Below are positions 3,595 through 37,789 of a stretch of DNA of 38,727 bases, in pieces (the first letter of the stretch is position 1; every line of letters begins with the position of its first letter). Made by a program: the position numbers and the translations under genes. Source of the DNA: a virus (taxonomy: Duplodnaviria; Caudoviricetes); IMG/VR virus record IMGVR_UViG_3300042399_000389, positions 1-38,727 of that record. The stretch is one strand, 5' to 3'. Under the pieces are notes generated by a model, which saw only the letters and a program-made list of their open reading frames with translations, was not told the origin of the DNA and did no database searches.

Positions 3595-6500
3595 ATGTCA
3601 GGTATAGTAATTGAAGTCGATGCTAATACCCGAAAAGCACAGAGAAATCTAGAGGAAGTAAATACTACGGTTAAGTCAATTTCACAAAGTGTGAATTCAA
3701 TGGCCGATGGCTTCAAAAGTGCTTTTATAGCAATTGGAACCACCTTTGCAGCAGATCAGCTTCTAAAGTATGTAGAAGAAACTACATCATCTTTACAAGA
3801 GATGGAAAACAAAGTTGCACTAGTTGTAGGTAAGAGTAACGAATTATATGATACACAAGTAAGACTTAGAAATATTGCAGATGAAACCAATGGTACTTAT
3901 AGAGAAACCGTTGAAGTATTTACTGCAATGGGACGCGCAATGCGTAACACTAATGTTGATATTGATAAATTAGCACGGTCTTCTAAAACAATACAACAAG
4001 CAGTAGCAATCTCAGGCTCTTCTGCAGAAAGCTCTAAAGCAGCTTTAACTCAGTTGGGTCAAGCTTTCTCCTCTGGTGTTTTAAGAGGCGAAGAATTAAA
4101 CTCTGTAATGGAGCAAACACCACGTATTGCAGGCATGATTGCAGACAGTATGGGTGTCACATTAGGTCAAATGAGACTTATTGCTGCTCAGGGAGAAATA
4201 ACTTCTGAAGTAATCTTCAAAGCACTTGCAGATCAAGCAGAAACAATTAATAAAGAATTCAAAAATATTGTACCTACATTATCTACAGGTTTCTTAAAGT
4301 TAAAAGAAAATGCAGCTTATGTATTTGTTGAATTTGACAAAGGCTTGGCGCTGTCTGAAAAGCTTTCAAAGAGTGTTTATAATCTTTCACAAGAATTAGG
4401 AAAGTCTGTTGACAAGGCTTACTTACTTGGAAATGCTTTGCGATTTTCTTTGGTGGGTTTTAAGAATCCACTTGAGGATTTGCTAGAGCCTGTTAAGCAA
4501 ATGTTAGAGATATCAATATATGCAATACAGCATTCTCTAGATACGATTGGTTTGACAAGGTTTATAACCACAGTAATAGAGCCTTTTGTAACTCAATTTA
4601 CTGCTGCTATTGATATCGCAATCATGCGTTGGCAAATGTTTGGCAAAATGCTACGCTCTGTCAAAGGCGATGATATGTTTTATCTATTAAAACCTATGCA
4701 AGCTATTGGCGAAATAACAGCATTAACTCTTAGAAATACATTAGTAAAAGTTAGTGCAGAAATCTTGGCATATGAGCAATCTGTCACAGGTCGTTTTAGA
4801 GCATTCATAATAAAGGAAATGAGATCCTTTAATATAGGTGGCGAAATTGTCTGGTACAGAATGTCTAAACAATTAATACAGAATTTAAGAGATACTGTCT
4901 TTGGTACTGACTCTGTTGCTGGAATTATTAGCAGTTTTGTAGGTTCTTTATTTTTAACACTTTCTACGGATCTTGTATCTGGTTTAAGAGATCTTGGAGA
5001 AACTCTAGCAGGCTACAATATACTTGAAAAGCTTTTTGGTGTTAGTTTTGGTGGCTCAAAGCTTGCAAGAATTGCTGGAAACTTAATGGTAACAGTGGCA
5101 GGTCTAGTAGACTCTTTAATGAATTCTCTAGTAAATGCTTCTGAAACATTCACTGAAGAATTATACTATAGACTAGCAGAAGGACTTAATTTAGTATTGC
5201 CTAAGTTTGCGCAAATAGACATGCCTATTGCCTTTAAGGTACATGTTGTATTTTCAAACATAGAGCAAAGTCTTGATAAAGTTTTAGATAGCCTTGTATC
5301 TGCAACAGCAATGTTGTCAAAGATAGATTTATTTGGTGCACTTACTGACGCTGCGTCTTATGCTTCTGGTGTATTTGTTGAGGTTTTAAATGTACTTTTA
5401 CATTGGATAACAACATTCTCCGAATTAGCTTTAAGAGGAGATTTAACAAATTGGTTTGAAGCCTTGGTAGACAAGGTACAATATTATTCAGATACTCTGA
5501 TAAAAGCATTAGCTCCAATTCAAGCTTTTGGTGATGCTGTTATTCAAGTGTTCTTTGAGATATATGACGCTGTTATTGCACATTCTTGGTGGACAGATAC
5601 TATTGATGAAATCATATACACATCTGCAACCTTATGGGGCAATACTTCAGTAGGCCTCAAGACTTTTGGAGACAATGTAATTGACTTGTTTGAAGTCATT
5701 TATACAAAGATTGGCGGTGTTTTAAATAGGATAGCTAGCCTTGATTTGTCGAAAACAATGTTCAAACTCAATAGCAAACTATATGCCTATTCACCTAACT
5801 TAGCTGGATACGCTAAAGCTATTGAGGACTCTATACAAAAGTCTGTTGTATTCTTAAGAGATGTATTTTCAAATGATTTACTATTCAAAGGTTTGAGATA
5901 TTCATTCACTGATACAATGTCTGGTGTTCTATCTTTTGTAAATCAAAGATTTAGAGCTTGGTTTAACACATGGCCATTGGCATTAAGACAAGCCTTTTCA
6001 GCCACAGTAATGGCAACGATTTTCAGCTCGTTACCTAAAGTTATTGCAGACGGTGTAATTGGCGGTTGGTTGCTAGCCTCCTCAATTATTGCAGGGACAT
6101 CACTAGCTATTACGATTACTGCAAATACCTTTGATAAGAGCTTAGGCGTAGAGTTAGGCAAAGCAGCAGGTGATATTGCATCTGGTGTTGTTAATGGTTC
6201 GCTTGTAGATATACCGAGATTGATTGGAGAAGGCTTTGCATTCTTTGGCAACTTTATGGAAAACTTCTTGACAGGTCTTCCTTACCTTGGTGTAATATTC
6301 TCTGGTATCTTTAAGATTGCGTCTTTGTTTGGTTCTGCACCAGCAGTAGGTTTGTTGGGTGCTTGGCTATTTGGCGGATCTCTTGTAAGACTAATGGTTG
6401 AATTAGGTGTCTACCGCAAAGGTTTGAGTGATGTATTACAGCGTCAGCGTAGTGTACAGTCATTCTTTATGGGTACTTACACAGGCAATAAGACTGCAGG

Positions 6501-9500
6501 TGGACAACCTACTCCTTTAGGCAAAATGTCTAAAGCATTCTTTAATGATACAAACAGAACTCAAAGCCTTGCTATTACAGGGTTGATGATGGACTTCTCA
6601 GGCATGTTTAATTCATTGTACAAAGATAATGTAATTGGGCACGCAATCGCAAGAGGCGGTTTGATTTGGTTAGCACTAACAGGTGAATCAGGTCTTAAAG
6701 ATTTGAAAACAGGTGTACTTGATCCAATGTTGTCGCATCTACACAATGCAATGGATCGTAGTCCTGTGTGGGGCAAAGTAAGAGACAAGTGGAGAAAAGA
6801 AGTCACAATGTCTGGTACTGGCGGTTTTAGCGGGTTTACCCAATGGATGGCTAGAGAGCTGAACAATATTTCTTTAAAGACAAGTGATCACTTATCTAAA
6901 GCTTTCAGCAAAAGTAATAAAATAAATGGCGGTACTTTTCTTCAGCATTTGCTATTAGGAAGAGATGCCAATACTTCTGGATTCTTTGATCGGTTTATCC
7001 TTGGTATTGAATCTGGTATGAAGCGTTTGCAAGATAAAATTGCAAACATGAAAGGCGGTTCTTTACTGAACAAAATCATACCTACACCAAAGCAAATATT
7101 TACAGCATTGTTTTTAGTTGGCTCTTTATTGTCAGCTATGTCTGCGCAAGGTGCAACTATAGATTCTGATAATTATTCTCCATTTAAGAATTACTCTGCT
7201 AAAGATAAAGATTCTGAGAAAATCCCAACCCCAATGTTTCCAGACGCAAATCCGTTACAAGCAACATTAGACTTTTGGGAGTCTATGACAGCAACTACGA
7301 CACAAATACTGCTAGCTGTTACTGCAGCAACAGGTGTGTCAATGATTGTATTTAAGGAATACAAACGATTTGCAGCAGCTACTTACGCAAATATTGACCG
7401 TGGCGCACTTGTTATGAGTGGTCTGTCTTATACATTAAAGACAATATTTAGCATGGCTGTTGAAGGCTTGGTAGGCGTTATTAGACTTTTGTATTTAGAA
7501 ACGATTCAATTCAGAAGACCAGAATTAGCAGGGCTTGAATTACTTACGGTTAGAATTAGAAGTGCAATGGCAGTTGTCTTGCGATTCTTAGCTGCTGTTT
7601 ATGCTCCTCAGCTATTTGGTTTTGGTGCAATTGGAACAGGGTTAAGTGCATTAGGCGCGTATGCAGCTTATATGAGTGGACCTGGGATAGCCTTAAGAAC
7701 TGCTGTTAACGCTAGACTAGAAGCAGCTATTATTGCAAAAGATGCAATGTTTATGAAGCTAGACGCTAAGTTTGCTAAATTAGCTTATACTAACGCAACA
7801 CTCGCACCTGCATTGCCTCTCTTAAGAACTGTAGATATGCTACTACAAGGTGCAGCAGCAGTTGGTAGTAGAGCTGCTACAAAGGCATTTAGGTTACCTG
7901 AAGGCGTATTGGCAGAGTCTATAGCATCTGCGCGTAAATCTCGTATTGCTCAATATATGAATGCGCCTAGTTATGCGGTTGCTGCTGCAAATATGGCAAC
8001 AGGCGGTGAAAGAGCGCGGGCAAACTTTATCAACGCTACTGATAAGAAAGGCTTGAGAAATGCTTTTGGTGTACAAGAAACCATTGCAGTATTAGATGTG
8101 CTTTCTAGCGGCATGCGTAGGTTTGCAAATACTCTAAAAGTTATTAGCGGTACAGTAGACTTTGCAATGAAAGGCATTAGCGCTGCAGCTACGTATCGTG
8201 CAACTAGTTTGTTAATGGCTTTATATGTAATTGGCAACCTTGTAAATGCAATAGCAAATCCAAAGAAACGTGGAGAACAAGAAGGCTTCATGGGGACGGG
8301 GCATTCAATGGGCTTTGATTACTTAGGTAATATGCCTGTACCTGGTGGCGGTGAAATTCCTTTGAGTCATCTGTTAATTCCTGCTGCTATTGGCACCTTT
8401 ATGATGAAGAGTGCTAAGAAGGTAGGCTTAAGCAGAGCACACGATGTTCAAATGGACAAGATTACAAAGCGTTGGGAAAGACAAAATGCTACTGCAATTG
8501 CAGCTGATGAAGCAGCAACGCGTTCTTATAATCTTCAAAAATATATGTTTGAGCGGTCAGCTCCTGGTACAATGGTTCCGCCTATAATGCCAACGATGAC
8601 AGCACCTCCTCGTCCACAAAGATTAAACGAAACTCAATTAGCAGCAAGAGATGCTCGTAAAAATGCTAAACTAGAGTGGGAAAGAAATCAAGCTAATGAA
8701 AATTGGATGGCACGCCAAAATGCAAAAGAGTTTGCAAGACGTGGTATAGGTAGCGCTGCTGAATTCATGGCAATGGATGCAGTACAAAGAAGTCTATCTG
8801 GTGTTAGACTCACGCAAAAAGAATTCCTTGATCAAAGACATGCCGAAAGAATGGCGGCAGGTAAGGGTTCTGTTATTCGTCATAATATGCCTGCTGTTGC
8901 AGGTGCGGGTATTGCTGGTGCGGGATTATTAGCCGCTGGTGGCTATCTAGGCGCAAAAGCTGGTTCTATGATGTCAGATGGTTCTCAAGATGGTATTTCA
9001 ATGGGGCTGGGCATCGGAGCAGTAGTTGCTGGTATTTACGGCAGAGATATTGTAACTGGTGTATTTAACGCATTAAGCAATACTAAAAATCTTAAGCTAT
9101 TTAAATGGACATGGATTCCTGTTGCATTGGCAGCTGCTTGGGACTCTATTTCAACAGCACATAAAACGCTATGGGATAGAATGTCAGAGTTGTGGGAAGG
9201 CTTTAAGAAATCAATAGGTCTTAAAAGCGAACCAAAAGATGCTAAGACAGGTCTCACTGAATCAAGCATGATAGAGGCTGCTAAATTAGGACTAGCTCCT
9301 TCTTTTGATATTTCTAAGATTGACATGAGTAAACTTAGCTACTCTGAAGAAACTGTATTCAAAGATACTCAAAAGCGTACTGAAGAAGCTTTAGCTGCTT
9401 CAATGGCTGAGAGATTGAAAATGGGTATGGTAGCAGATGAGACTGCAAATGCAGCTTCAGAAGCTTTAAAAGCTTTATCTCGTGTGTCAAAAGAGTTTGC

Positions 9501-12500
9501 AGCTAAGACTAAGATTGACGTAGAAGCTATGGCCAATCAAATGACTATGCTTGATACGCGCAATACAGTAGATCCTTCTCGTGGTACTCAAGCTTTAGAG
9601 TTTATTGGAGATAACTGGAAAGAAGCATTAGCTGCATCTATAATGGTTCTTGTAGGCAATAAGCTAAGATTGCTAAAAGCTGTTGGTGAAGCGGCTCCTG
9701 TTGTTGCGGGAGAAGGCGGGGCAGCTGCACTTGGTCAATGGATGTCTGGGCAGGGTGGTAATCTTGTAAGAACTGCAGTAGCTTTTACTGGCGTTAAAAT
9801 GCTAGAAGAAGATGTTAGTACAGCAGTTGCTTCTGGTGCTATTGAAGGTGCTGCCTTAGGATTCTCAGTACCTACCTTGTATAAACCTATAACAGCTGGT
9901 GTTGGTGCTGCGATTGGTGCTGCAATAGGCTATGTTACATCTAAGTTTTCAAACAGAAATCTAACAGATTACTTATCTAGAAATTATGTACAGTTCCCGT
10001 CTAAACAAGGCTTTATGCCTGAAATACAGACAACTTATGATCCTCGTAAAAGGGCAGAAATAAAACCAATTGGCCCTGATTTGTCTGAAATGGATAGAGC
10101 AAGACTTGAAGCTGAAAATCTTCGAGTTTCATTTGTAAACTCTGTAAAGAGTTCTAATGAAGCATATACATCAATGGATAAAAGTTCTCCATTGGCATTA
10201 GAGTACGCAGATAGGCTTTCTAATTTAGACACTGTATACGCAAATTTCAAGAAGTTTAGATATGAGGTTACTCCTGAAGGTGCAACGTTTGATAATAAAA
10301 CATTAGCAGCTAATTATTATGCTAGTATAGATCGAAACATTGATGCTTTGACAGAGTGGACAGACGCTGCTAAAAAGCAAACTGAAGTGCTTAAACAAGT
10401 ATCTGCTAGAGAAGCTATTGCTAAGAATGAACCTGGATTCTGGAAACCGCTTGGTGTAACTTTAGACAATCTTAAAGACTTCCAATTGACAGGACGTTCT
10501 TTTGATGTTGGTAAAGATCTTAAAGCTCGTGGTGAAACGCTTGTAAAGCAAACACAATTTCCTACAAATGAGCTTAGCAATGCTAATTTGTTTGAAAAGA
10601 AAAGACTTGCTGATAAAAGAACTTATTTGCAAACATTAGAAGCTGATAAGTACTTATCAAGCCAAATGGCTGTTACAAAATTAGGCAACGATATCAATCT
10701 AGGTTTGACAGAAGAGCTTAAGTACTTGTCTGAAGATCTTACAGACACCCTAAGAGAACGTATTCGTAAGATTCAGTTTGTAGAAGACCAGTCGCTTAAT
10801 AAATTACAAAAGCCTTCTTTAGAAAATATTGACTTATTGCCATTGGCGGAAAGAAGTGCAGCTAAGGCGCGTAATGAGATATTACAAGAGAGATACGCAG
10901 CTGAATTGGTTCGTAGAAAACAAGAGCAAAAGAATCTTCCTGGTTTTAGGTTTGAGACTAAGCAAAATGCTTTTGAAAACATGCTTAAAACACCAGAAGC
11001 TCTTAGTGCTAAGTTGACAAACCTATATGCAGCAGATGCTTCAAAAGTCTTAGGCAGTTACAGAGAGATTGGTGTAGAGCAAACTAATAACTTATTACTT
11101 AATAAAGAGCAATTAAATATATTAAGAGAGTATGCAGTTGCTGACCACCAGTTAGACTTAGTTGTTGATATTGATAAATTGCTAAATAGCGTAGATAGAG
11201 CATTAACACCGATTGCAATGTCTGTAAGTGCGACTCTTGAAGCTGCTTTTAGCGGATTAAGTGTTGATTTGCTACCTCAAGACACTTTCTTAGAGTTGAA
11301 GAGTATTGGTAATCAAATAGCACGTATTAAGAAAGATTTGGATGATCCTGAGTCACAGTTCTTACCACAAGAAGATTTAATTGCTAAACAAAAAGCTTTG
11401 AAAGATCTTAAGTTAAGGGCAGATGATCTTGCAGCTGTTTTGAAGAATACAACTGGCGAAAGTATGATGTCAGCTGTATCTGATTTAGGTTTAACTGCCG
11501 CACAAAGATCTAGAATAACATTAGATCAAATGAGTGCTGCGTTAGCTTTAAGCCGAGGTAAAGCCTCTGTAACTTCTCAGCTATCTATGGCTACAACTCC
11601 GCAAGAACAGCAACGCTTGATACGTAAGGCAGCTGGCTACGAAAGTACTACTGAATTGTTGAAATTTACAGCAACTCTCGATAAGTCAGGGTTTAGTACT
11701 GTAGCAGAAGCTCTTGGTATTGATCTTAATAAATTAAGTACAAGAGGTAAAAGTCTCTTAAAAGAATTCTCTGGTCTTGCAAAATACATTAATATTTTGA
11801 AGTCAGATTCTATTGAACTTAATGATCAAGCAGCTGTTGATAAGTACCTAAATAGTTTACAGGCGTTAGCACGTTTAACAGAACGTGTACAAATGACTGC
11901 TAAGCAAAATACATTAGATATTTTAAATGAGTTAAGTGGTAATTCAAATGGATTGAATCTTTCTGAACAGCTATCTGTAGGTGTTGCAAATGGTCTTGCT
12001 AATACTGCTAAACTTTTGAAACAACAACTCTCAGAAGCTATTACTAATAGCGGTGATGTACTAGATAGCGTTGCAATTCGTATTGGCAAAAATATCCAAG
12101 CATTATCTAGCTATCAACCATTGCTATCATTCTTTGCAATGCTTGCTGATAAGGCTGAAGCAGCTATTCACGGTGGTATTGGTAAAGCATTAGAACAAGT
12201 TAATAAAGCATTTCCAGATCTTAAGATAGATGCTACTGAACTTGGAAAGATGGATCCAGGCGCAAGAAAATCACTTACTGATAGAGCTTACAACTTAAAT
12301 ATTCTAACTGAGTTACAAAGTGGCCCTTTGAATGAAGATCAAGCAAATGTCTTGAATAGACTAAAAGAGCTTGGCCCTGAAAAGACCATTGAAGAATTTG
12401 CTAAAGTAGGAAAATCCCTATTAGAGTCTGTTGGATTTACTGATGTACAGCTTAACACAGTAGCATTAGATGGCGTGCAAGATGCGTTGAAGTTTAACAC

Positions 12501-15500
12501 AGCTGCATTAAATGCCAATACAGTTGCCAATGGCGGCAAGCCTACTGAAGTACCACCAAACAAGTCTGTTGATGTTACAACAAAACCTACAAAAGATTTT
12601 GGCAATACTAGTGACAGATACGATGAATTGTTTAGAAAGTACGCTGAAATAAATAAAGTACCTTTTGAACTTGTTAAAGCAATTGCTGCAAGCGAAACTA
12701 ATAATTTTAGTACAAAAGCTGTAAGCAGTCAGGGTGCAGTAGGTATCATGCAACTTATGCCTACAACGGCGGAATACTATGGTGTTTCTGATCGTACTGA
12801 TCCAGAGGAATCTATTTCTGGAGGTACTAGATATCTTAAGCGTTTAATGAAGTTGTTCCCAACTTTCCCAGAAGTAGCGGCAGCTTACAATGCTGGAGAA
12901 GGTAGTGTACAGAAGGCTAATGCAAAAGCTAAAGCTAGTGGTGGTACTTTCTTAGACTACTTGCCTAAGCCTAAGGAAACTGTTCCATATGTTTCTAAGG
13001 TAATGACTGCGTATGATACGTTTGCAGGTAATGTTGCTCCGCCAAAACAAGCCTCTGGACCTTTTGAGAATTATGATATATTAAAACCAGTATTAGACAA
13101 AGCAGTACGCAGAAGTCCTATTGGTTCTTTTAACAAAAACCTTCAAAATTTCATACCATTCGGAGGCTACGAAAATCTAATAGAACCACCACCATCTGGT
13201 TCTTCTTATGAAGATGTAACAAGAATACAGGGTAAAATTACTCTGGGCAAGCCTTTCAAACCAAACACATTAGATGGCGGAACTAGTCCTGATATTATTG
13301 TAGGTGGTATAAACCTTACTGTTCAAGACGAAGCCATTAAAATGGTTGATCGCTTAGATTCTTTTAATAGAATGTTTGGTAACTTTGCTTCTGATGGGAT
13401 TGGCAATACTTTAGATAAAGTCCGTGAAAACATTTCAAATAGCTTATCGTATAATGAGCCTTATGATTATCAATATAAAGCTGAAAAGATTGCAGATCAA
13501 GTAAGTGTTAATACTAATTTACCTGAACTAAAGCTGGCAGATTTGCCTAACAAAGATGTTAAAATGTTAGGACAACAAGTAGATATACGCCCTGCTGCTA
13601 ATGAGTTAGAAATCCTAAAGAATGCTCTTCCCAAAGAAGCGCGTACATTGTTAGAAAAGTTTAATACTAGCAATAAGCCTTTGGCTGGTAAGTATGGAGA
13701 TGCCTTAGGTGTTGACCCTAAAACATTAGAAACATTATCTGGTTCTCAGTTTGCTGCATTAGACAAAATGACGCAAGCAAGAGCTAATGTACAGCAACAA
13801 CTTACAGAAGGTCTTGGTACTAAAGGTTATGATGCTTCAGCAGCAACGCAAGCGCTAAAGAATCTTGATGATCAAATTAATTCTTTTGTTGAAGGTGTAA
13901 ATGCTAATATTGCTGAGCTTAAATTAGAAAAAGCTGGCGCATATACGGCAGCTAACAAAGATAATATTACTGGATTCTTAAATAAATTTAGTTCTATTGG
14001 TACTGAAGTAACTGGCATGATGAGTGAAGCAGATAAAGCTACTGCCAAATCTATGGCTATTCAGAAATTGTACTTAGAAGATAAGTTGGCAAAAGACAGT
14101 ATTGCTGGAAAGTCAACCCAGGCAACAAGCAAACAGTTAGCTGATTTGGCGGATGCAGAGGGTTACCTTAAAGATAAAACTTTAGAAGCTGCTAATGCTG
14201 CTAGAGAGGCAGGTAAGACATTTGCAGAGTCATTAACCTCTACGTTTAAGGACGCATTTAAAGGTCTTTTAAACAGAGAAAGTGATAAGGGTAAATCTAT
14301 ATTTAAAACTTTTGCTGACAAACTTATTACAGGGATTAAAGATCAAACTGTAGATATCTTTACAAATGCTGTAACAGATAGTATTGGCCTTGGCAAAGGC
14401 GGAGTGCTTAGTAAAATGTTAAGTAAAACAGGTACAGGACTTTCTTCTGGTTTCCGCGCATTGGGTGGCGGTGTTCAAAGCCTGCTATCTGGCAAAGGAA
14501 GTTGGGAAGGATTTACATCTGGCGTTAGTAATTGGTTTAGCAATTTGACTTCTGATCTTGATAACGCTACGCCTGAAGAGATTCAAATGGCGGCAGCTAC
14601 AAAATTCTCTGACGCGGTGGACAGATTTGCAGGCGGGAGTGCCATTTCTGGTGCCGCTAATGCGGCTACAGGAAGCGGAATTGGCAGTGCCTTGATGAGT
14701 GCCTTGCCGTGGGTTGGCGGTGCCGCAGGCGTTGCGGGGTTGGGCTATATGGCAACTAAAGGCGGTGACTGGAGTAGTGGTTTAAAAGATCTTGGTGCTA
14801 ATTTTACAACTAAAGCTGGTAGTGCATTAACACCTTCCGGCAATCCTATGGAGACATTAGATCCACGTACAGGGTTGTTTGGTAAAATGGATTCTTTTGA
14901 TGCTGATGTTACAGGCTTATTTAATAATAAGAGTAGCAGTAACAAGAACGGCTGGTCAGCTGGTCTATCAGATTCTTTAGCTAAGAGTACCCCTGACACT
15001 ACAGGCCTGTGGGATATAATTATGAAACCTATTAAATGGTTCTTTAGTTTAATAGGCGATGGTTTTACAGGAATTATGTCATTCTTTACGGGTGCTGGGC
15101 AGGGCGTTGGGACTAGTTCAGGTAAGCCTGAAAGTGCTACAAGCCCCTTAGATAGTCTTAAGCTTAAGTTTGCTAATGGCGGACCAGTCTCAGGCGGTGG
15201 TACAACTACTTCTGATTCTATACCTGCAATGCTATCTGATGGTGAGTTTGTAGTTAATGCAAAGGCTACCAAAGAAAACAGAGAAATGTTGGAGCGTATT
15301 AATCGTGGTGAAGTAATCAAACGTTCACTAGGCGGTATTGTCTCAATGGGTACAAGCCTTGCAGGAAGAGCTATTGGCGGTAAAACAGGAACAGCCCTAA
15401 GTTCATTAGGTTCTATTGCTAGTGGTGTTGCAGGCATGCTATCTAGTCAGCAAGCTGAACAAGCCGCTGAGTCTTTGTTAGCCGCATCTCAACACTTAGA

Positions 15501-16587
15501 AACAGCCGCAACAGCCTTAGAAAACTTTGCAGCCACTGGCAGTATGGGTGGCGGTGCTGGTGGTTTTGGCGGTCTTAATGGCAGTACAATCGGCTTAAAC
15601 GGCATTCCAGAGGGTATGACAAATTTCTCTAGACAGACAGGTATGGAGGGTGCAACCACTCAGGGTATTGCCGATACAAGCGGTTATGGCGCTACGCCTG
15701 GATTAACACCAATATCTAGTGTAGGTATGGGTGATCTATCGGCTTCAGGTGGTATGGTTGGTGGTGGCGGTGGAATGTTTGATGGTATTTTTGACTTCTT
15801 TTCAAAATTAGATTTTGGTAAGATGTTTGGAAGTCTTGGCAGTCTGTTTGGTCTTGGGGCTGCTACTGGTGGACATATTGTTGGCCCAGGTTCTGGTACT
15901 TCTGACTCTATTCCAGCTAACTTGTCTAACGGTGAGTTTGTCGTAAACGCAGCAGCTACTAAGGGTAATCTAGGGTTATTACACTCTATCAACGCTGGTA
16001 AAAAGGTTCAACATCGTGCCCTAGGCGGTTTGCTAACAATGATTCCAGGACTAGTTGGTGGTATTGGTGGTATGATTAAAGGCGGTGGCGGAGGTGGTGC
16101 AGGTGGTATTATGGGCATGATTTCGCAGTTACTTGGCCCCTTAATGAAGCTGTTTGGTGGCGGTGCAGGTGGTGGCGGTATTATGAGTTTATTTGGCGGT
16201 ACTAAAGCAGCTACTGGTGGAAAGATTGTTGGACCAGGCTCTGGTACTTCGGACTCTATTCCTGCAATGATATCTAATGGCGAATTTGTTGTTAATGCCG
16301 CAGCTACTAAGGCAAACCTTGGTCTTCTCCATAGCTTAAATAGTGGCCGTCAACACTTTGCAGAAGGTGGTTTAGCTGGCGTTTCAAGTGGCATTATGAC
16401 AACACCGACTTCAAAAGGCTTTAAACCAATATCGGTAGATAAGTCAACAAAGAGTACTCAACAGGTAGTTAACCTTAATATAACAGGTGATATCTCTCGT
16501 CAAACTAAGTCAGAAATCTTTAAGATGATGCCTACAATTGCGAGCGGTGTTAATTTACAAAATAAAGAAGCAGGAATTAAACGATAA
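3595..16587 (+). CDS. Tail tape measure protein (4330 aa) with lytic transglycosylase domain and triplicated C-terminal motif
   Basis: N-terminal tape-measure motif (LTQLGQAFSSGVLRGEELNSVMEQTPRIA), long Ala/Leu/Gly helical body with hydrophobic segments, SLT motifs, and C-terminal GG...G.GT..SDSIPA.LS.GEFVVNA.AT repeats. Confidence 0.95.
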   Translation: MSGIVIEVDANTRKAQRNLEEVNTTVKSISQSVNSMADGFKSAFIAIGTTFAADQLLKYVEETTSSLQEMENKVALVVGKSNELYDTQVRLRNIADETNGTYRETVEVFTAMGRAMRNTNVDIDKLARSSKTIQQAVAISGSSAESSKAALTQLGQAFSSGVLRGEELNSVMEQTPRIAGMIADSMGVTLGQMRLIAAQGEITSEVIFKALADQAETINKEFKNIVPTLSTGFLKLKENAAYVFVEFDKGLALSEKLSKSVYNLSQELGKSVDKAYLLGNALRFSLVGFKNPLEDLLEPVKQMLEISIYAIQHSLDTIGLTRFITTVIEPFVTQFTAAIDIAIMRWQMFGKMLRSVKGDDMFYLLKPMQAIGEITALTLRNTLVKVSAEILAYEQSVTGRFRAFIIKEMRSFNIGGEIVWYRMSKQLIQNLRDTVFGTDSVAGIISSFVGSLFLTLSTDLVSGLRDLGETLAGYNILEKLFGVSFGGSKLARIAGNLMVTVAGLVDSLMNSLVNASETFTEELYYRLAEGLNLVLPKFAQIDMPIAFKVHVVFSNIEQSLDKVLDSLVSATAMLSKIDLFGALTDAASYASGVFVEVLNVLLHWITTFSELALRGDLTNWFEALVDKVQYYSDTLIKALAPIQAFGDAVIQVFFEIYDAVIAHSWWTDTIDEIIYTSATLWGNTSVGLKTFGDNVIDLFEVIYTKIGGVLNRIASLDLSKTMFKLNSKLYAYSPNLAGYAKAIEDSIQKSVVFLRDVFSNDLLFKGLRYSFTDTMSGVLSFVNQRFRAWFNTWPLALRQAFSATVMATIFSSLPKVIADGVIGGWLLASSIIAGTSLAITITANTFDKSLGVELGKAAGDIASGVVNGSLVDIPRLIGEGFAFFGNFMENFLTGLPYLGVIFSGIFKIASLFGSAPAVGLLGAWLFGGSLVRLMVELGVYRKGLSDVLQRQRSVQSFFMGTYTGNKTAGGQPTPLGKMSKAFFNDTNRTQSLAITGLMMDFSGMFNSLYKDNVIGHAIARGGLIWLALTGESGLKDLKTGVLDPMLSHLHNAMDRSPVWGKVRDKWRKEVTMSGTGGFSGFTQWMARELNNISLKTSDHLSKAFSKSNKINGGTFLQHLLLGRDANTSGFFDRFILGIESGMKRLQDKIANMKGGSLLNKIIPTPKQIFTALFLVGSLLSAMSAQGATIDSDNYSPFKNYSAKDKDSEKIPTPMFPDANPLQATLDFWESMTATTTQILLAVTAATGVSMIVFKEYKRFAAATYANIDRGALVMSGLSYTLKTIFSMAVEGLVGVIRLLYLETIQFRRPELAGLELLTVRIRSAMAVVLRFLAAVYAPQLFGFGAIGTGLSALGAYAAYMSGPGIALRTAVNARLEAAIIAKDAMFMKLDAKFAKLAYTNATLAPALPLLRTVDMLLQGAAAVGSRAATKAFRLPEGVLAESIASARKSRIAQYMNAPSYAVAAANMATGGERARANFINATDKKGLRNAFGVQETIAVLDVLSSGMRRFANTLKVISGTVDFAMKGISAAATYRATSLLMALYVIGNLVNAIANPKKRGEQEGFMGTGHSMGFDYLGNMPVPGGGEIPLSHLLIPAAIGTFMMKSAKKVGLSRAHDVQMDKITKRWERQNATAIAADEAATRSYNLQKYMFERSAPGTMVPPIMPTMTAPPRPQRLNETQLAARDARKNAKLEWERNQANENWMARQNAKEFARRGIGSAAEFMAMDAVQRSLSGVRLTQKEFLDQRHAERMAAGKGSVIRHNMPAVAGAGIAGAGLLAAGGYLGAKAGSMMSDGSQDGISMGLGIGAVVAGIYGRDIVTGVFNALSNTKNLKLFKWTWIPVALAAAWDSISTAHKTLWDRMSELWEGFKKSIGLKSEPKDAKTGLTESSMIEAAKLGLAPSFDISKIDMSKLSYSEETVFKDTQKRTEEALAASMAERLKMGMVADETANAASEALKALSRVSKEFAAKTKIDVEAMANQMTMLDTRNTVDPSRGTQALEFIGDNWKEALAASIMVLVGNKLRLLKAVGEAAPVVAGEGGAAALGQWMSGQGGNLVRTAVAFTGVKMLEEDVSTAVASGAIEGAALGFSVPTLYKPITAGVGAAIGAAIGYVTSKFSNRNLTDYLSRNYVQFPSKQGFMPEIQTTYDPRKRAEIKPIGPDLSEMDRARLEAENLRVSFVNSVKSSNEAYTSMDKSSPLALEYADRLSNLDTVYANFKKFRYEVTPEGATFDNKTLAANYYASIDRNIDALTEWTDAAKKQTEVLKQVSAREAIAKNEPGFWKPLGVTLDNLKDFQLTGRSFDVGKDLKARGETLVKQTQFPTNELSNANLFEKKRLADKRTYLQTLEADKYLSSQMAVTKLGNDINLGLTEELKYLSEDLTDTLRERIRKIQFVEDQSLNKLQKPSLENIDLLPLAERSAAKARNEILQERYAAELVRRKQEQKNLPGFRFETKQNAFENMLKTPEALSAKLTNLYAADASKVLGSYREIGVEQTNNLLLNKEQLNILREYAVADHQLDLVVDIDKLLNSVDRALTPIAMSVSATLEAAFSGLSVDLLPQDTFLELKSIGNQIARIKKDLDDPESQFLPQEDLIAKQKALKDLKLRADDLAAVLKNTTGESMMSAVSDLGLTAAQRSRITLDQMSAALALSRGKASVTSQLSMATTPQEQQRLIRKAAGYESTTELLKFTATLDKSGFSTVAEALGIDLNKLSTRGKSLLKEFSGLAKYINILKSDSIELNDQAAVDKYLNSLQALARLTERVQMTAKQNTLDILNELSGNSNGLNLSEQLSVGVANGLANTAKLLKQQLSEAITNSGDVLDSVAIRIGKNIQALSSYQPLLSFFAMLADKAEAAIHGGIGKALEQVNKAFPDLKIDATELGKMDPGARKSLTDRAYNLNILTELQSGPLNEDQANVLNRLKELGPEKTIEEFAKVGKSLLESVGFTDVQLNTVALDGVQDALKFNTAALNANTVANGGKPTEVPPNKSVDVTTKPTKDFGNTSDRYDELFRKYAEINKVPFELVKAIAASETNNFSTKAVSSQGAVGIMQLMPTTAEYYGVSDRTDPEESISGGTRYLKRLMKLFPTFPEVAAAYNAGEGSVQKANAKAKASGGTFLDYLPKPKETVPYVSKVMTAYDTFAGNVAPPKQASGPFENYDILKPVLDKAVRRSPIGSFNKNLQNFIPFGGYENLIEPPPSGSSYEDVTRIQGKITLGKPFKPNTLDGGTSPDIIVGGINLTVQDEAIKMVDRLDSFNRMFGNFASDGIGNTLDKVRENISNSLSYNEPYDYQYKAEKIADQVSVNTNLPELKLADLPNKDVKMLGQQVDIRPAANELEILKNALPKEARTLLEKFNTSNKPLAGKYGDALGVDPKTLETLSGSQFAALDKMTQARANVQQQLTEGLGTKGYDASAATQALKNLDDQINSFVEGVNANIAELKLEKAGAYTAANKDNITGFLNKFSSIGTEVTGMMSEADKATAKSMAIQKLYLEDKLAKDSIAGKSTQATSKQLADLADAEGYLKDKTLEAANAAREAGKTFAESLTSTFKDAFKGLLNRESDKGKSIFKTFADKLITGIKDQTVDIFTNAVTDSIGLGKGGVLSKMLSKTGTGLSSGFRALGGGVQSLLSGKGSWEGFTSGVSNWFSNLTSDLDNATPEEIQMAAATKFSDAVDRFAGGSAISGAANAATGSGIGSALMSALPWVGGAAGVAGLGYMATKGGDWSSGLKDLGANFTTKAGSALTPSGNPMETLDPRTGLFGKMDSFDADVTGLFNNKSSSNKNGWSAGLSDSLAKSTPDTTGLWDIIMKPIKWFFSLIGDGFTGIMSFFTGAGQGVGTSSGKPESATSPLDSLKLKFANGGPVSGGGTTTSDSIPAMLSDGEFVVNAKATKENREMLERINRGEVIKRSLGGIVSMGTSLAGRAIGGKTGTALSSLGSIASGVAGMLSSQQAEQAAESLLAASQHLETAATALENFAATGSMGGGAGGFGGLNGSTIGLNGIPEGMTNFSRQTGMEGATTQGIADTSGYGATPGLTPISSVGMGDLSASGGMVGGGGGMFDGIFDFFSKLDFGKMFGSLGSLFGLGAATGGHIVGPGSGTSDSIPANLSNGEFVVNAAATKGNLGLLHSINAGKKVQHRALGGLLTMIPGLVGGIGGMIKGGGGGGAGGIMGMISQLLGPLMKLFGGGAGGGGIMSLFGGTKAATGGKIVGPGSGTSDSIPAMISNGEFVVNAAATKANLGLLHSLNSGRQHFAEGGLAGVSSGIMTTPTSKGFKPISVDKSTKSTQQVVNLNITGDISRQTKSEIFKMMPTIASGVNLQNKEAGIKR
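12619..13005 (+). other. SLT-family lytic transglycosylase domain inside the tape measure protein
   Basis: KAIAASET (candidate catalytic Glu codon at 12694), AVS..GAVGIMQLMP.TA, DP...I.GG.RYL, AAYNAGEG, ETVPYV.KV. Confidence 0.9.
15169..16347 (+). repeat. Three copies of a roughly 47-aa C-terminal tape-measure motif
   Basis: Copies begin at about 15169, 15859 and 16207 (A.GG...G.G..TSDSIPA..S.GEFVVNA.ATK.N...L...N.G). Confidence 0.9.
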
Positions 16588-34100: not shown

Positions 34101-34779
34101 CTATACAACTACAGTTAGTAGCGGTACAGCCAAGCCTTTAAAAATAGATATTTATGACTCTATTGAGAGCAACACAACACTAATTTTTAATAATAGCGGT
34201 ACTATTCAAGGCGAAACTCTTTCAACATCAAGAGTATTTAATCAACCTGAAAATGCTATTGACATTTACTGCGCATGTAAGTTAATACTGAATAACAACG
34301 GTATAATACGAGGCAGAGGCGGTAGTGGCGGCAGAGGTGGTTCTTCTATTTACAGAGGTGACAGTAGTGGCGAAAATGGCGGCCCAGGTGGTGATGCTAT
34401 TTTTACTTTTACTAACTTTATTCTATATAATTATGGCACATTAGCTTGCGGTGGTGGTGGTGGCGGAGGGGGCGGTGGTAATGGTTCAGGTAGTTCAGTC
34501 TGGGGCGGTAGCTCTTACGCTAGGAGTACAACCTATCCAACAGCATCAAGCAGTCATACAGGTACTAGCGGAACTTCAGGTAAAGCTGGCGGTGGTGCAG
34601 GAGGTTCTGGCGGTGATGGCGCAAACGGCGCTGCAGGTACAGGTGTATATGGTACCTACTCATCTGCCGGAGATTATAGAAGCATATATTCACCTGGTGG
34701 TAGTGGTGGTGCTAAAGGTGCTGCAATTACCGGCGGTGGTAGTGTAACTCTTTATAACTATGGGACATATAAACCATGA
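31144..34779 (+). CDS. Glycine-rich receptor-binding adhesin (T-even gp38-like), 1211 aa, with two adhesin modules and Fn3-like domains
   Basis: N-terminal SISDVNVDLGR...SLN...VR.L; repeated (N/Y)(N/Y)G.I.GGGG.GG motifs; Fn3-like segments (GLTSDTSYSYYVTAYN, GLGYGILYEISIVAVNEIG); directly follows an S74 fibre. Confidence 0.75.
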   Translation: MPYSISDVNVDLGRTTTATTSLNEPVVRDLLLADPYPAPVNLYPDLSPENNTPPVLSVNTITQNSCIFTWTGGETYGTYQLRGRWKDKDGYWVNIAAGNTLTKGAVFNFGYSGDLRNTMYGYYEVFIVIRFNGIDYLPSNTVNVQLLDWSFEDGFYPATPYGVGSTADANYPNHSVTYRYDIRWFRLALRLKGVADSELGGSAPATYTNFSMSIHRNVTIYDSNNYNGNVVMTVLAGNNNYLWEAPKLIIGIDVGSDHDFTFVYSGIANVDPSDYVLGHYETDTTYQPGDVVCMYSNLVMCIKTCTNIEPFNHASWSYYWDYPPTNPGRAIAFWNTHYARNSTFINNGTILGGGGGGGRGGETTITELYYNPSAFINQKYLKGDAVTHSGNIFVCVTDTVSAYFNGTFTWSTPVRSSHTTYWRFYALSTEKFSTGSDGLQGGPALYQGSGISGGVKLMNNGTIFGGGNGGGGGGGGTVPMSYAVVYGFNGEGTFSSTPVSPAGGDGGHGSFYNRAEVNPSVDFKYKGGMGGKGSINGLTAGENATGANHDYSGDGLGGGYIANNWTEGSFNVLPGGKPLPPVLSIAAVSQNSITLGIAKQDPIGGNTPTGYYIYDSANVQQGSTTNDTFTIAGLTSDTSYSYYVTAYNTLVSASSSTIIGKTALILPTFTFGVDNKTYNSFTVIISKVTSATYYEIYFNDVLRTTINDSGNSTTVYATGPTMGISSTTYVKVKAYSGTNSSVLTPAQAWTTTYAAVPAVPTSFTYAETTNTTALLSWSGSGISYKIAVKNQSNNAVTNYTSNIMNITATGLGYGILYEISIVAVNEIGDSIAYVIPNVMLVDVSLPTLSLSSVTSKTFTVSFDGPASGHTHTLRLQSMDYYGNWETEIIGTYSSGSAFTPPNRSRGKYRLRIQVANSGGKVMATPYLDVQLSDWVISSSNSTNTPQNFSYGWYFNDAWIRNNTTALPASNAESTCLRSVTINSSGNYTTTVSSGTAKPLKIDIYDSIESNTTLIFNNSGTIQGETLSTSRVFNQPENAIDIYCACKLILNNNGIIRGRGGSGGRGGSSIYRGDSSGENGGPGGDAIFTFTNFILYNYGTLACGGGGGGGGGGNGSGSSVWGGSSYARSTTYPTASSSHTGTSGTSGKAGGGAGGSGGDGANGAAGTGVYGTYSSAGDYRSIYSPGGSGGAKGAAITGGGSVTLYNYGTYKP

Positions 34780-35243
34780 TAGTACGGAAGATAAAAAGCC
34801 AAGAAGAAATGGCCAAGTGCGTAGATATGTATATTGACATCTACGAAAATGAAATTATCCCATTAGACCGTGACAAATCATTATTATCAATGAGACGTCA
34901 TGTTGCTGCAGGACAATTCTTTAAAGTAATTGAAGACAATGGAGAAGTAATAGCATGGATTGCTGGAGCAGTTTTAGAAAGAGAATTTATTGCAGAGAAA
35001 TACATGCAACAGATTTATTATTGTTCTAACCAAAAGGGTATGAAAGCTTATCGTTGTGTAGTATTGCTTCATAAGGCATTAATTGAAGAGTCTAAGAAAT
35101 TAAATATTAGACACGTATTGTCAACAGGCAGTCATGCAGACACTGAGAATGTATTCGTAAAAATTCTCGGTAAGAATGGTTGGAGCGTTAGAAATTATTT
35201 AGCAATATGGAGAAACGATGAAATACATATGGGCACGGCTTAA
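34776..35243 (+). CDS. GNAT-fold (acetyltransferase-like) protein
   Basis: MIVRKI start, F.VIEDNGEVIAWI beta strands, and L.KNGW terminal pattern; the acetyl-CoA loop (NQKGMKA) is degenerate. Confidence 0.55.
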   Translation: MIVRKIKSQEEMAKCVDMYIDIYENEIIPLDRDKSLLSMRRHVAAGQFFKVIEDNGEVIAWIAGAVLEREFIAEKYMQQIYYCSNQKGMKAYRCVVLLHKALIEESKKLNIRHVLSTGSHADTENVFVKILGKNGWSVRNYLAIWRNDEIHMGTA

Positions 35244-35439: not shown

Positions 35440-35640
35440 AGTCATGGGGGCAATTTTGCGGGGCAAGACGGGGCATTTCTGCACGAATTTTGGTGGGCGG
35501 CAAATCTGGGCGTGTGTGGCGCGGGGCGGTGGGGGCATCACTGGTGGATCAGGGCGGCAGTTGCGTGCCGTGTAGGGCGGTTTCTGGTGCCAGAACTGGT
35601 ACACGTGGGGCAGTTGCGTGCAGTTCTTCAGGTACACTCA
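35440..35640. other. G-rich non-coding island with short direct repeats (function unknown)
   Basis: 80 of 120 bases are G+C at 35461-35580. GGCAGTTGCGTGC occurs at 35556 and 35609, CGGGGCA at 35459 and 35469, GGTACAC at 35598 and 35631. Confidence 0.7.
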
Positions 35641-35651
35641 ACCCCGTTAAA

Positions 35652-35680
35652 TTAACCCTTGCGGCCTCCCCCTGTATTAT
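35652..35680 (+). promoter_or_regulatory. Possible sigma70-type promoter
   Basis: TTAACC-N17-TATTAT upstream of the first early gene; imperfect match in AT-rich DNA. Confidence 0.3.
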
Positions 35681-35695
35681 CTCTCTTAGTAATAC

Positions 35696-35727
35696 GGAAA
35701 TAATAGTATCTTATATGAAGTACAATA
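35696..35727 (+). promoter_or_regulatory. Conserved phage promoter/operator motif, copy 1
   Basis: GGAAA-N5-GTATCTTATATGAAGTACAATA; the 22-mer is at 35706-35727, upstream of RBS AGGAG and the ATG at 35751. Confidence 0.8.
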
Positions 35728-35750
35728 ATAACTTTATATAGGAGAATACT

Positions 35751-36581
35751 ATGGAAAACGAAAACATAAGAATAGCACATCAATTTACGCTAAATAGACG
35801 CGATGCTACAAAACGATATGGTATTGCGCCATACCCGCAGTTTGATGCTTCTGAGAAGTACAGAAGTAAAGGTATGCAAGAAACCTTAGAAATGTTATGG
35901 GGTGTATACAAAGATGCAAATCAACTCGAAATTATCGCAAGAGTGTATACAATAGAATCTTTATGGTACTTAACTAAAAGAATTTTTGTAATTGATCCAA
36001 CAGTGGCAACAGAATTACTTAACTCTAAAGTATCTAAGAAAATAGATATGTCACAAGTAAGACTTCCTGACTGGGGCATTGCTGTAAGCGCAGGTAACCT
36101 GCGATTTAAAGCCGCCAAATTTCGATTACATTGTGATGGGTATTGTAAAGATCGATTAGTCTTCTGGGTACATGAGTCAGAAACTCAGCTTAATAGATTG
36201 TTTATGTATCCTGCAGATGAGGTTGTCGATCTAAGCGAATTTGAAGATGCCCAAGGGGATCAAATCCTGTCGGTGATATTGTATATAAGTGCAGTCAAGG
36301 ATACAATACCAAAGGCTTCACGTTCAAATAATCATGCCAAGCAGCCTAAAAAGATAAAACATTTTGATATGCCTGAACACTCAACCTCAGTAGTACTTGG
36401 TGCAAAGTTAGGGGAAAGGTTACGAGCTGGATATACTGGTACTAAACTCTCAAATGGAATGAAAGCTCATATTCGTAGGGCACATTGGCACAACTACTGG
36501 ACAGGCCCTAAAGACAACAGAAGGTTAATATGTAAGTGGACAAACTCCACGGGTGTTAATATGAATTTAGCCGATGTATAA
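35751..36581 (+). CDS. AcrVA2/FinQ-family protein (putative anti-defence factor)
   Basis: Collinear motifs that I recall from AcrVA2: W..T..I...D, LPDW, (L/I)G..LG...R and HIRR(A/G)HWH.YW.G......W.....VN. Recognised from memory, not by search. Confidence 0.7.
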   Translation: MENENIRIAHQFTLNRRDATKRYGIAPYPQFDASEKYRSKGMQETLEMLWGVYKDANQLEIIARVYTIESLWYLTKRIFVIDPTVATELLNSKVSKKIDMSQVRLPDWGIAVSAGNLRFKAAKFRLHCDGYCKDRLVFWVHESETQLNRLFMYPADEVVDLSEFEDAQGDQILSVILYISAVKDTIPKASRSNNHAKQPKKIKHFDMPEHSTSVVLGAKLGERLRAGYTGTKLSNGMKAHIRRAHWHNYWTGPKDNRRLICKWTNSTGVNMNLADV

Positions 36582-36616
36582 CGCGGGAAATACGGTATCT
36601 TATATGAAGTACAATA
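36580..36616 (+). promoter_or_regulatory. Conserved phage promoter/operator motif, copy 2
   Basis: AACGCGGGAAA-TACG-GTATCTTATATGAAGTACAATA; the 22-mer is at 36595-36616, upstream of the ATG at 36635. Confidence 0.85.
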
Positions 36617-36847: not shown

Positions 36848-37299
36848 TTAGGATAATGTACAATAAAACCAAAACTGTTGCTCAAGTAGTTTACGGTAAC
36901 ACTCAGATAGGATACAGAATTCGCTTTGATAGTAACCATAGAGTATGGGAGATTGATTTTGAAGACGAGCAGTTTAATAACATAGAAGCAGCAATTTTAC
37001 ATGTAATCTTAAACAGTCACGAGATGGAGGATGCTTGTGAAGAGAGATGCTGGGCAGACTCATCTTTTAGCTTAAGCAAAATGACAATTAGAAGTAAGTT
37101 TGGCACTACCTATAGCCTTATTACGCAAGGCGCTGGAGACTCATGGGATTTGTACACAATTTATGAAGACGATGAAGATGAGATTGAGGGGTATCCACCA
37201 GACAAGTTAATAACAAAAGCTTATAACTTTTATTCAACGGATTGCTTAATGACTTGGTTAGGCAGAACTTTTTACAAATTAAGATGGGAAGAAAGATGA
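36844..37299 (+). CDS. Hypothetical protein (151 aa, acidic, Trp/Tyr-rich)
   Basis: RBS AGGGG; ATGA overlaps at both ends. Confidence 0.8.
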   Translation: MIRIMYNKTKTVAQVVYGNTQIGYRIRFDSNHRVWEIDFEDEQFNNIEAAILHVILNSHEMEDACEERCWADSSFSLSKMTIRSKFGTTYSLITQGAGDSWDLYTIYEDDEDEIEGYPPDKLITKAYNFYSTDCLMTWLGRTFYKLRWEER

Positions 37300-37595
37300 G
37301 TACAGTAATGTTTATGATTGACGCGGTCTTTGATATACGCGTTAGAACCCATTCAGTATTTGAATATGTACTATTCGAAGCTGAATGCTACGATGAATGT
37401 ATTACTCTTCTGGACAGTGCTGATGCACGTCTTAGAATTGGTAATAATTACTCATACACTTGGAACCATACCCATTGGGATGGGCAAAGGCTAGAGTCAT
37501 TCATTACGCTTTTAGATTTACTTGATGATGATAAGTACAAATTAAACGTCCTTACAGAGGGCCATCTTTTCCAACAAGGGGTATTAGTATTATGA
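37296..37595 (+). CDS. Hypothetical protein (99 aa, acidic)
   Basis: The ATG at 37296 overlaps the upstream TGA (ATGA) and is preferred over the ORF-track start at 37242. Confidence 0.75.
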   Translation: MSTVMFMIDAVFDIRVRTHSVFEYVLFEAECYDECITLLDSADARLRIGNNYSYTWNHTHWDGQRLESFITLLDLLDDDKYKLNVLTEGHLFQQGVLVL

Positions 37596-37753: not shown

Positions 37754-37789
37754 ACGCGGGAAACGGGGTATCTTATATGAAGTACAATA
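37753..37789 (+). promoter_or_regulatory. Conserved phage promoter/operator motif, copy 3
   Basis: AACGCGGGAAA-CGGG-GTATCTTATATGAAGTACAATA; the 22-mer is at 37768-37789, upstream of the ATG at 37823. Confidence 0.85.

What the first reader, a model, noticed from the sequence alone, without database searches (positions are those of the whole stretch)
35751..36581. AcrVA2/FinQ-like gene heading the early region
Seen: ARVYTIESLWYLTKRIFVID, RLPDWGIAV, ILSVILYIS, LGAKLGERLR and AHIRRAHWHNYWTGP...KW.....VN. From memory, these follow the order of conserved blocks in AcrVA2, an anti-Cas12a protein that causes cas12a mRNA loss and is related to the plasmid fertility inhibitor FinQ. Inference: as the first gene behind a repeated promoter, it may silence a host defence or conjugation transcript. 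The target need not be Cas12a, so it may be new.
Basis: partly seen in the sequence, partly recalled or inferred. Interest (0 to 1): 0.8.

Follow-up and report, generated by a model that had tools for sequence, protein, structure and literature searches.

The report
Compact AcrVA2-family gene in lake phage
The first gene of this lake phage's early region is a short, distant member of the known AcrVA2/FinQ protein family, so it likely silences one host gene by triggering decay of its mRNA during translation; the target is unknown and nothing found points to Cas12a.

Summary
Observation confirmed and family call supported. The 276-aa ORF (35751-36581, +) has AcrVA2 (7CI1) as its only PDB sequence hit (E 2.8e-7). 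Its family profile covers AcrVA2 residues 7-319 (E 1.6e-51). Its predicted fold matches 7CI1 end to end (Z 16.2; next hit 3.1). All five residues shown to matter in AcrVA2 are kept (W72, D82, H240, R242, H245). With three relatives it forms a long-branch, compact subclade: the middle domain is about 40 aa shorter, the N-terminus is variable, and the last 40 residues are nearly invariant. It groups with neither AcrVA2 nor FinQ. The phage is an ~82-kb siphovirus distantly related to Naomiviridae, with no integrase detected. The gene is accessory: 2 of 21 related records carry it, both this same phage. It sits between two exact copies of a 22-nt motif. That motif is probably read by the phage's MuF-fused (candidate virion) RNA polymerase; this is inferred. 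Host, target and activity are undetermined. The family is catalogued (Pfam PF26125, ~1,800 published homologues), and this scan has noted AcrVA2-like genes and the MuF-RNAP fusion before on other DNA. Verdict: new member of a known kind.

The parts
35751..36581 (+). AcrVA2/FinQ-family gene, 276 aa, compact subclade
35964..35996 (+). W72...D82, equivalent to AcrVA2 W79/D89
   Evidence: alignment to 7ci1 (chain numbering is native +1); W in 124 of 125 and D in 112 of 125 rows of A1
36396..36578 (+). Basic C-terminal domain (216-276) with H240-x-R242-x-x-H245 (AcrVA2 H286/R288/H291); predicted ribosome-associating part
   Evidence: role taken from PMC13728456's summary of Marino 2026
35740..35745 (+). 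Shine-Dalgarno-like AGGAGA
   Evidence: sequence
35696..35727 (+). Motif A copy 1 (GGAAA...GTATCTTATATGAAGTACAATA), candidate early phage-polymerase promoter in front of the gene
36586..36616 (+). Motif A copy 2, 14 nt after the stop codon; closes the one-gene cassette and heads the next genes
37758..37789 (+). Motif A copy 3
35643..35659 (+). Motif B (CCCGTTAAATTAACCCT); 7 copies in each of 4 of 4 records examined, the others before SSB, terminase and scaffold genes; candidate promoter of the non-virion phage RNAP
35407..35434 (+). Intrinsic-terminator-like hairpin ending the tail/holin operon
35441..35620 (+). G-rich non-coding stretch (80 G of 180 nt), 72-80% conserved in relatives; no folding beyond chance; role unknown

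Best explanation
The gene encodes a compact member of the AcrVA2/FinQ family that the phage likely makes at the very start of infection and that is predicted to dock on host ribosomes, recognise the emerging N-terminus of one host protein (probably a defence protein other than Cas12a) and trigger decay of that protein's mRNA. Shown here: family membership, retention of the five functional residues, a near-invariant basic C-terminal domain beside a variable N-terminal and middle part, and position as a one-gene accessory cassette between two identical motifs. Inferred: (1) ribosome binding by the C-terminal domain and recruitment of a host nuclease, by transfer from AcrVA2; (2) a different target, read by the remodelled N-terminal/middle part; (3) transcription from motif A by the MuF-fused candidate virion RNA polymerase, possibly continued from motif B by the second phage polymerase; (4) because a biogenesis blocker cannot remove existing protein and no integrase was found, a target that is short-lived or newly made during infection.
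For: Only PDB sequence hit is AcrVA2, E 2.8e-7. Profile A1 (125 sequences) hits AcrVA2 at E 1.6e-51 over 7-319 and two FinQ-annotated plasmid proteins at E about 5e-60. An external profile, phrog_6160, holds the window protein (4.7e-26), a Moraxella AcrVA2 orthologue (1.7e-106) and FinQ (1.3e-44). ESM Atlas top hit is PF26125 AcrVA2-like, score 0.98. Fold: Foldseek 7ci1 E 4.3e-10, TM 0.55; VIA Z 16.2, rmsd 3.6, 236 aligned, next Z 3.1. A second model from only the 4 subclade sequences still gives Z 10.7, rmsd 4.5, 188 aligned, next 4.4. W79/D89/H286/R288/H291 are needed for AcrVA2 activity (preprint) and are kept. Against relatives of 42-44% overall identity, the last 40 aa are 36/40 and 39/40 identical and the first 70 only 18/70 and 17/70; residues 185-276 hold 17 K+R against 5 D+E. 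The tree places the subclade apart from AcrVA2 and FinQ. Motif A occurs only between the lysis end and the early RNAP gene in G001-G004. The same phage encodes a MuF-RNAP fusion with all four polymerase motifs.
Against: No activity, binding or target was tested. Direct identity is low: 13-18% structural identity to AcrVA2, 16% to the Moraxella orthologue and 22% to FinQ, so function transfer is by family only. About 40 residues of the middle domain are missing (core spacing 135 against median 175), which could change more than specificity. The mechanism is established for AcrVA2 only; for FinQ the preprint says it was never determined. The preprint notes that blocking biogenesis is presumably ineffective against existing protein, which fits a lytic phage less well than a prophage. 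The host is unknown, so Cas12a cannot be excluded. The session's Pfam and NCBIfam copies gave no hit; PF26125 comes from precomputed labels.
Confidence: 0.55

Rival explanations
1. It is a true anti-Cas12a protein acting on the LSKT-type N-terminus as AcrVA2 does.
For: Same fold and the same five key residues. Shewanella phage Y11's homologue was proposed as anti-Cas12a on such grounds (PMC10846135 passages), though without a test in those passages.
Against: It does not group with the AcrVA2 clade. The N-terminal and middle parts are remodelled; AcrVA2 E98 aligns to N91 and the stretch around D195 falls in the shortened region, though that 620-636 binding site is dispensable in vivo. Homologues are typically found where Cas12a is absent. 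No neighbour was identified as an acr or aca gene.
Confidence: 0.1
2. It keeps the ribosome-binding module but acts more broadly, or on a non-defence host protein (host takeover, such as a regulator or sigma factor), serving the lytic cycle and not immunity evasion.
For: First gene of the early region of a phage with no detected integrase (0 of 5 records). Extreme conservation is confined to the C-terminal domain, and the middle domain is shortened.
Against: It is accessory: not found in 19 of 21 related records, 0 of 6 near-complete ones, whereas a general takeover factor might be core, like the 99-aa early gene found in 20 of 21 loci. AcrVA2 itself lowered one expressed transcript significantly.
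Confidence: 0.2
3. It is FinQ-like: it silences transfer or replication genes of a competing plasmid or co-infecting element.
For: Homology to FinQ-annotated proteins; FinQ reportedly lowers F transfer-gene mRNA.
Against: No grouping with FinQ in the tree. A phage without a detected integrase gains little from blocking conjugation (inference).
Confidence: 0.08
4. It is a decaying or neutral passenger that came in by recombination between the repeats.
For: Patchy presence, flanked by exact repeats; shortest core among 102 scored family rows.
Against: Intact ORF with ribosome-binding site. Four subclade members keep the length (276-286 aa) and an almost invariant last 40 residues across 42-44% overall identity.
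Confidence: 0.07

Closest known systems
AcrVA2 of Moraxella bovoculi prophage (PDB 7CI1/7CI2; Pfam PF26125 AcrVA2-like; Marino et al. bioRxiv 10.1101/2022.11.29.518452, Nature 2026)
   Same: Fold end to end (Z 16.2), block order, W/D and H-x-R-x-x-H residues, basic C-terminal beta domain, carried by a phage.
   Different: 276 against 322 aa, with about 40 aa less in the middle domain; unrelated-looking N-terminus; 13-18% identity; separate long branch; in a phage with no detected integrase, not a prophage; no acr neighbours identified; target unknown.
FinQ of IncI/F-type plasmids (records annotated 'protein finQ', L003 and L004)
   Same: Homologous core and C-terminal motif (HH-align 98%, E 5.9e-14).
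   Different: 361 aa, plasmid-borne; 22% identity; no tree affinity; no conjugation context here.
Uncharacterised AcrVA2-like genes of other phages (Shewanella vB_SbaS_Y11 ORF43; Erwinia and Dickeya large phages; Pasteurella phages)
   Same: Same family; Y11 also has no integrase (PMC10846135 passages); weak tblastn and Foldseek hits.
   Different: Those seen in the fold search are 295-420 aa and Y11's is 358 aa; Y11 groups with the Moraxella clade (99 support), this protein does not.
Naomiviridae (DSS3_VP1/PM1) and EBPR siphovirus 1, for the carrier phage; N4 virion-RNAP relay for the proposed transcription logic
   Same: Best hits for RNAP (33%), DNA polymerase (34%), capsid (40-48%) and the MuF-fused polymerase (29.5-57%).
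   Different: Distant; no dCMP/dCTP deaminase homologue detected in the window or G001-G004; no AcrVA2-like hit in the 45 kb of DSS3_VP1 examined.

Membership tests
AcrVA2/FinQ family (PF26125) | Significant profile match beyond the short C-terminal motif | tested here: met
   Two stretches by phmmer; profile A1 to 7ci1 E 1.6e-51 over 7-319; phrog_6160 two stretches, E 4.7e-26; precomputed PF26125 label.
AcrVA2/FinQ family (PF26125) | AcrVA2 three-part fold | tested here: met
   Foldseek E 4.3e-10; VIA Z 16.2, rmsd 3.6, 236 aligned; 4-sequence model Z 10.7.
AcrVA2/FinQ family (PF26125) | Conserved W79, D89, H286, R288, H291 | tested here: met
   W72, D82, H240, R242, H245.
AcrVA2/FinQ family (PF26125) | Encoded on a mobile element | tested here: met
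   Tail, tape-measure and holin genes in the window; virus record.
AcrVA2 proper (anti-Cas12a) | Orthology to the Moraxella clade | tested here: not met
   Own clade (99 support) on a long branch, away from the Mcat5/Y11 clade in a FastTree of 208 rows; deep branches are poorly supported, so only close orthology is excluded. 16% identity to the Mcat5 orthologue.
AcrVA2 proper (anti-Cas12a) | Binds the Cas12a N-terminal LSKT and lowers cas12a mRNA | not testable with these tools
   Needs an assay; no complex prediction was run.
AcrVA2 proper (anti-Cas12a) | Host carries type V-A CRISPR-Cas | tested here: inconclusive
   Host not found.
AcrVA2 proper (anti-Cas12a) | C-terminal domain associates with ribosomes | not testable with these tools
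   Basic, conserved C-terminal domain present; function known only from PMC13728456's summary.
FinQ | Plasmid-borne inhibitor of F transfer | tested here: not met
   Phage-borne and no tree affinity; conjugation activity itself was not tested.

The most novel reading that the evidence does not exclude
A minimal AcrVA2-type silencer, switched on within moments of entry by a capsid-delivered phage RNA polymerase, lets a strictly lytic phage destroy the mRNA of a non-CRISPR defence protein as it is being made. Its invariant ribosome-binding tail and swappable front end would mark the natural boundary between the decay module and the specificity module, which makes it a template for reprogrammable, polypeptide-directed mRNA knockdown.
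Probability: 0.25. Interest if true: 0.65.

Novelty: new member of a known kind. Interest (0 to 1): 0.3.

Why it matters
What the roughly 1,800 AcrVA2 homologues target outside Cas12a hosts is an open question raised by the discoverers. This subclade is a convenient probe: it has the shortest core of the rows scored, it keeps every known functional residue, and it splits cleanly into an invariant tail and a variable front. It does not answer the question, because host and target are unknown and the phage is uncultured. As a family assignment it is ordinary.

Tried and rejected
Pfam (session copy), NCBIfam and PADLOC gave no hit for the protein. Host search failed. Motif A had 0 exact matches in genome contigs. 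A 20-kb phage query gave short matches in 7 of 401 and 1 of 401 genomes of two proteobacterial orders that I picked by guess, and none of the 8 lies in a CRISPR-like repeat array. Endolysin homologues carried no host names. Expression is not shown: contigs from RNA libraries cover parts of the gene without mismatch (X18 36018-36299, X19 36306-36456), but X17 and X18 also cover the tail genes in 13-kb contigs, so DNA carry-over cannot be excluded. No silent-stretch control was laid. The DNA context of P0002, P0003 and P0004 could not be obtained, so their position in genomes and dN/dS are untested. Motif A as a sigma-70 promoter: the scan found 9 sites against 11.6 expected and none at the motif; this does not exclude a host promoter of another type. 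The G-rich stretch folds no better than shuffles (z 0.37). Weak polo-box-like matches of the middle domain (Z 2.7-4.4) are within background and not used. The first tree run did not finish; the FastTree result cannot place the long branch, so no donor is claimed. No complex prediction was run, since no partner is known. The Nature 2026 paper is not held, and the preprint's supplementary homologue list was not seen, so this protein may already be in it.

Full report
Observation. The ORF at 35751-36581 (+) is real: 276 aa, with a ribosome-binding site and all five quoted blocks in order. It follows a terminator-like hairpin that closes the tail/holin operon, a G-rich non-coding stretch, and the first of three exact 22-nt repeats (35706, 36595, 37768; 0 of 100 shuffles reach this). 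Two other records of the same phage carry the intact gene, one with a single substitution, C132Y.

Family. The only PDB sequence hit is AcrVA2 (7ci1/7ci2), E 2.8e-7, in two stretches. phmmer over 1.84 billion representatives finds 933 proteins at E up to 0.001 but only 3 at up to 1e-30. I aligned the window protein with P0002-P0005 and 120 of the other listed hits, leaving out fragments and long or fused forms (A1, 125 rows). That profile matches AcrVA2 over residues 7-319 of 323 at E 1.6e-51, with the next PDB hit at 0.024, and two plasmid proteins annotated FinQ at about 5e-60. An external profile, phrog_6160, links the window protein (4.7e-26), the Moraxella phage Mcat5 protein (1.7e-106; its similarity to 7ci1 is E 6.7e-127) and FinQ (1.3e-44). 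The ESM Atlas names PF26125 as 'AcrVA2-like', top score 0.98, and the close homologues carry that precomputed label. The AlphaFold model (pLDDT 77.6) matches only AcrVA2: Foldseek E 4.3e-10; VIA Z 16.2, rmsd 3.6, 236 aligned, 1 of 48,161 chains above Z 5. A model built from just the four subclade sequences (pLDDT 62.4, C-terminus poorly modelled) still gives Z 10.7. The preprint shows that W79A and D89A weaken AcrVA2 and that H286A, R288A and H291A diminish it; these are W72, D82, H240, R242 and H245 here.

What is distinctive. The window protein and P0002-P0004 (86, 44 and 42% identical) form a clade with 99 support on a long branch. It groups with neither the Moraxella/Shewanella AcrVA2 clade nor FinQ in a 208-row FastTree whose deep forks are mostly open. 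A profile of the four found no further close members among the 7,994 candidates scored. They have the shortest cores: 135-138 residues between LPxW and HxRxxHW against a median of 175, in the 102 of 125 rows where both motifs could be scored. The missing part lies in the middle domain. Against P0003 and P0004 the first 70 residues are 18/70 and 17/70 identical and the last 40 are 36/40 and 39/40; residues 185-276 are basic. This fits a fixed partner for the tail (the ribosome, according to PMC13728456's summary of Marino et al. 2026) and a changing one for the front, but that is inference.

The phage. The window is the tail module plus the start of the early region. Record G001 overlaps both ends of the window (4,238 and 2,041 bases, over 99%), which implies a genome of about 82 kb. 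Its RNAP, DNA polymerase and capsid hit DSS3_VP1/PM1 (Naomiviridae) at 33-40% and EBPR siphovirus 1 at 48%. No tyrosine integrase or serine-recombinase domain was found in 0 of 5 records. No homologue of the DSS3_VP1 deaminase was found. The 16 DNA runs listed as holding the region are labelled lake water metagenome and may be the source of this DNA. The host could not be assigned.

Accessory cassette. Motif A occurs exactly in 22 viral contigs. The AcrVA2-like gene is in 2 of the 21 that could be searched whole, both this same phage, and in 0 of 6 near-complete ones; several records are near-copies of each other, so these are not independent counts. In 21 loci from 19 other contigs none holds the gene, the first motif copy leads into other small genes, and a neighbouring 99-aa gene is present in 20 of 21. 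The gene fills exactly the space between two motif copies, so gain or loss by recombination between them is plausible; direction is not determined.

Transcription. Motif A lies only between the lysis end and the 742-aa early RNAP gene in G001-G004 (G005 has one extra 2-mismatch site) and is not picked up as a sigma-70 site. A second motif, B, occurs 7 times in each of 4 of 4 records, before the SSB, a middle gene, terminase and scaffold genes, and once just upstream of motif A copy 1. The phage has a second polymerase: a 1,541-aa MuF-RNAP fusion between portal and scaffold, with all four single-subunit polymerase motifs tested, conserved in 5 of 5 relatives and in DSS3_VP1, where it is annotated only as head morphogenesis. 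The simplest reading is an N4-like relay: the virion enzyme reads A, the early enzyme reads B. This is untested. I saw the fusion; the scan had noted it earlier on other DNA (21 findings). Two literature searches and passages of PMC5512222, PMC8323127 and PMC12669031 showed no description of it; that is not proof of absence.

Mechanism and rivals. Most likely (0.55) it is an AcrVA2-type co-translational silencer of a host defence protein other than Cas12a. The preprint itself notes that a biogenesis blocker cannot remove existing protein, so in a phage without a detected integrase the target should be short-lived or newly made. Rivals are broader or non-defence host takeover (0.2), true anti-Cas12a (0.1), FinQ-like action on another element (0.08) and neutral passenger (0.07).

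Novelty. The family is catalogued, with about 1,800 homologues typically in bacteria lacking Cas12a, and 8 earlier scan notes describe other members; none matched this sequence. This is a new, compact member with an unknown target. Interest 0.3.

Papers seen. 10.1101/2022.11.29.518452: parts 1 and 2 of 4 of the text, plus passages; supplements not seen. PMC13131331, PMC13728456, PMC10846135, PMC8323127, PMC12697855, PMC12669031, PMC5512222, PMC5696584: passages only. N4 and P23-45 virion-RNAP papers: search listing and abstract starts. Marino et al. Nature 2026: not held, known only through PMC13728456. Polymerase motif patterns are recalled.

Noticed in passing
L122:2094-6719 (G001, same phage): 1,541-aa MuF minor-head domain fused to a single-subunit RNA polymerase with intact motifs; candidate virion RNAP; conserved in 5 of 5 relatives and in DSS3_VP1 gp108 and EBPR siphovirus 1. 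Already noted by the scan on other DNA.
   Followed up: partly
window 35643-35659 and G001:9325, 23776, 27294, 27426, 45463, 45573: Motif B comes in two forms: followed by AT-rich DNA, or followed by a short C-run. The C-run form is the first of a pair before the terminase and scaffold operons and stands alone before motif A at the early head. Its AATTAACCCT part equals, from recall, the upstream half of the T3 promoter.
   Followed up: partly
window 35441-35620: G-rich, GC-rich non-coding stretch between the late terminator and the early motifs, 72-80% conserved in relatives; may be a genome end, packaging site or origin (untested).
   Followed up: partly
window 37296-37595: 99-aa early gene found in 20 of 21 related loci, the conserved core of an otherwise shuffled early region; no Pfam, PHROG or confident Atlas hit (best 0.79).
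   Followed up: partly
window 3595-16587: 4,330-aa tape measure protein with an SLT transglycosylase domain at about 3012-3115; far longer than the 1,655-aa TMP of DSS3_VP1.
   Followed up: no
window 34776-35243: 155-aa protein with no family hit between the last tail gene and the holin; similar genes lie near the holin in relatives; by eye GNAT-like (not tested).
   Followed up: no
L005, L008, L009, L013, L014 (after the holin): Many relatives carry a 222-aa gene (PhoH-like by eye, not tested) after the holin; the window lacks it at this place.
   Followed up: no
G002, G003, G005, G008 MuF-RNAP genes; L011, L012, L026, L030 early RNAP genes: Both polymerase genes are interrupted in several relatives: in-frame insertions of about 225 codons near residue 1100 of the fusion (and near 990 in G005), and early RNAP frames ending at 522-538 aa. 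Likely inteins or introns.
   Followed up: no
L029 and L030 (the two ends of G005): The two ends of one 77.5-kb contig carry two different versions of the early region; possibly a chimeric assembly of strains.
   Followed up: no
G024 (Azohydromonas australica; L044, L046, L048): At least three near full-length AcrVA2-family matches plus fragments in one bacterial genome.
   Followed up: no
L135:4203, 4238, 30927, 31394, 31552, 44197 (DSS3_VP1): Repeated motif ATAGGGTGCGTTAAAG before the portal and the SSB-like gene, in positions like those of motif B.
   Followed up: no
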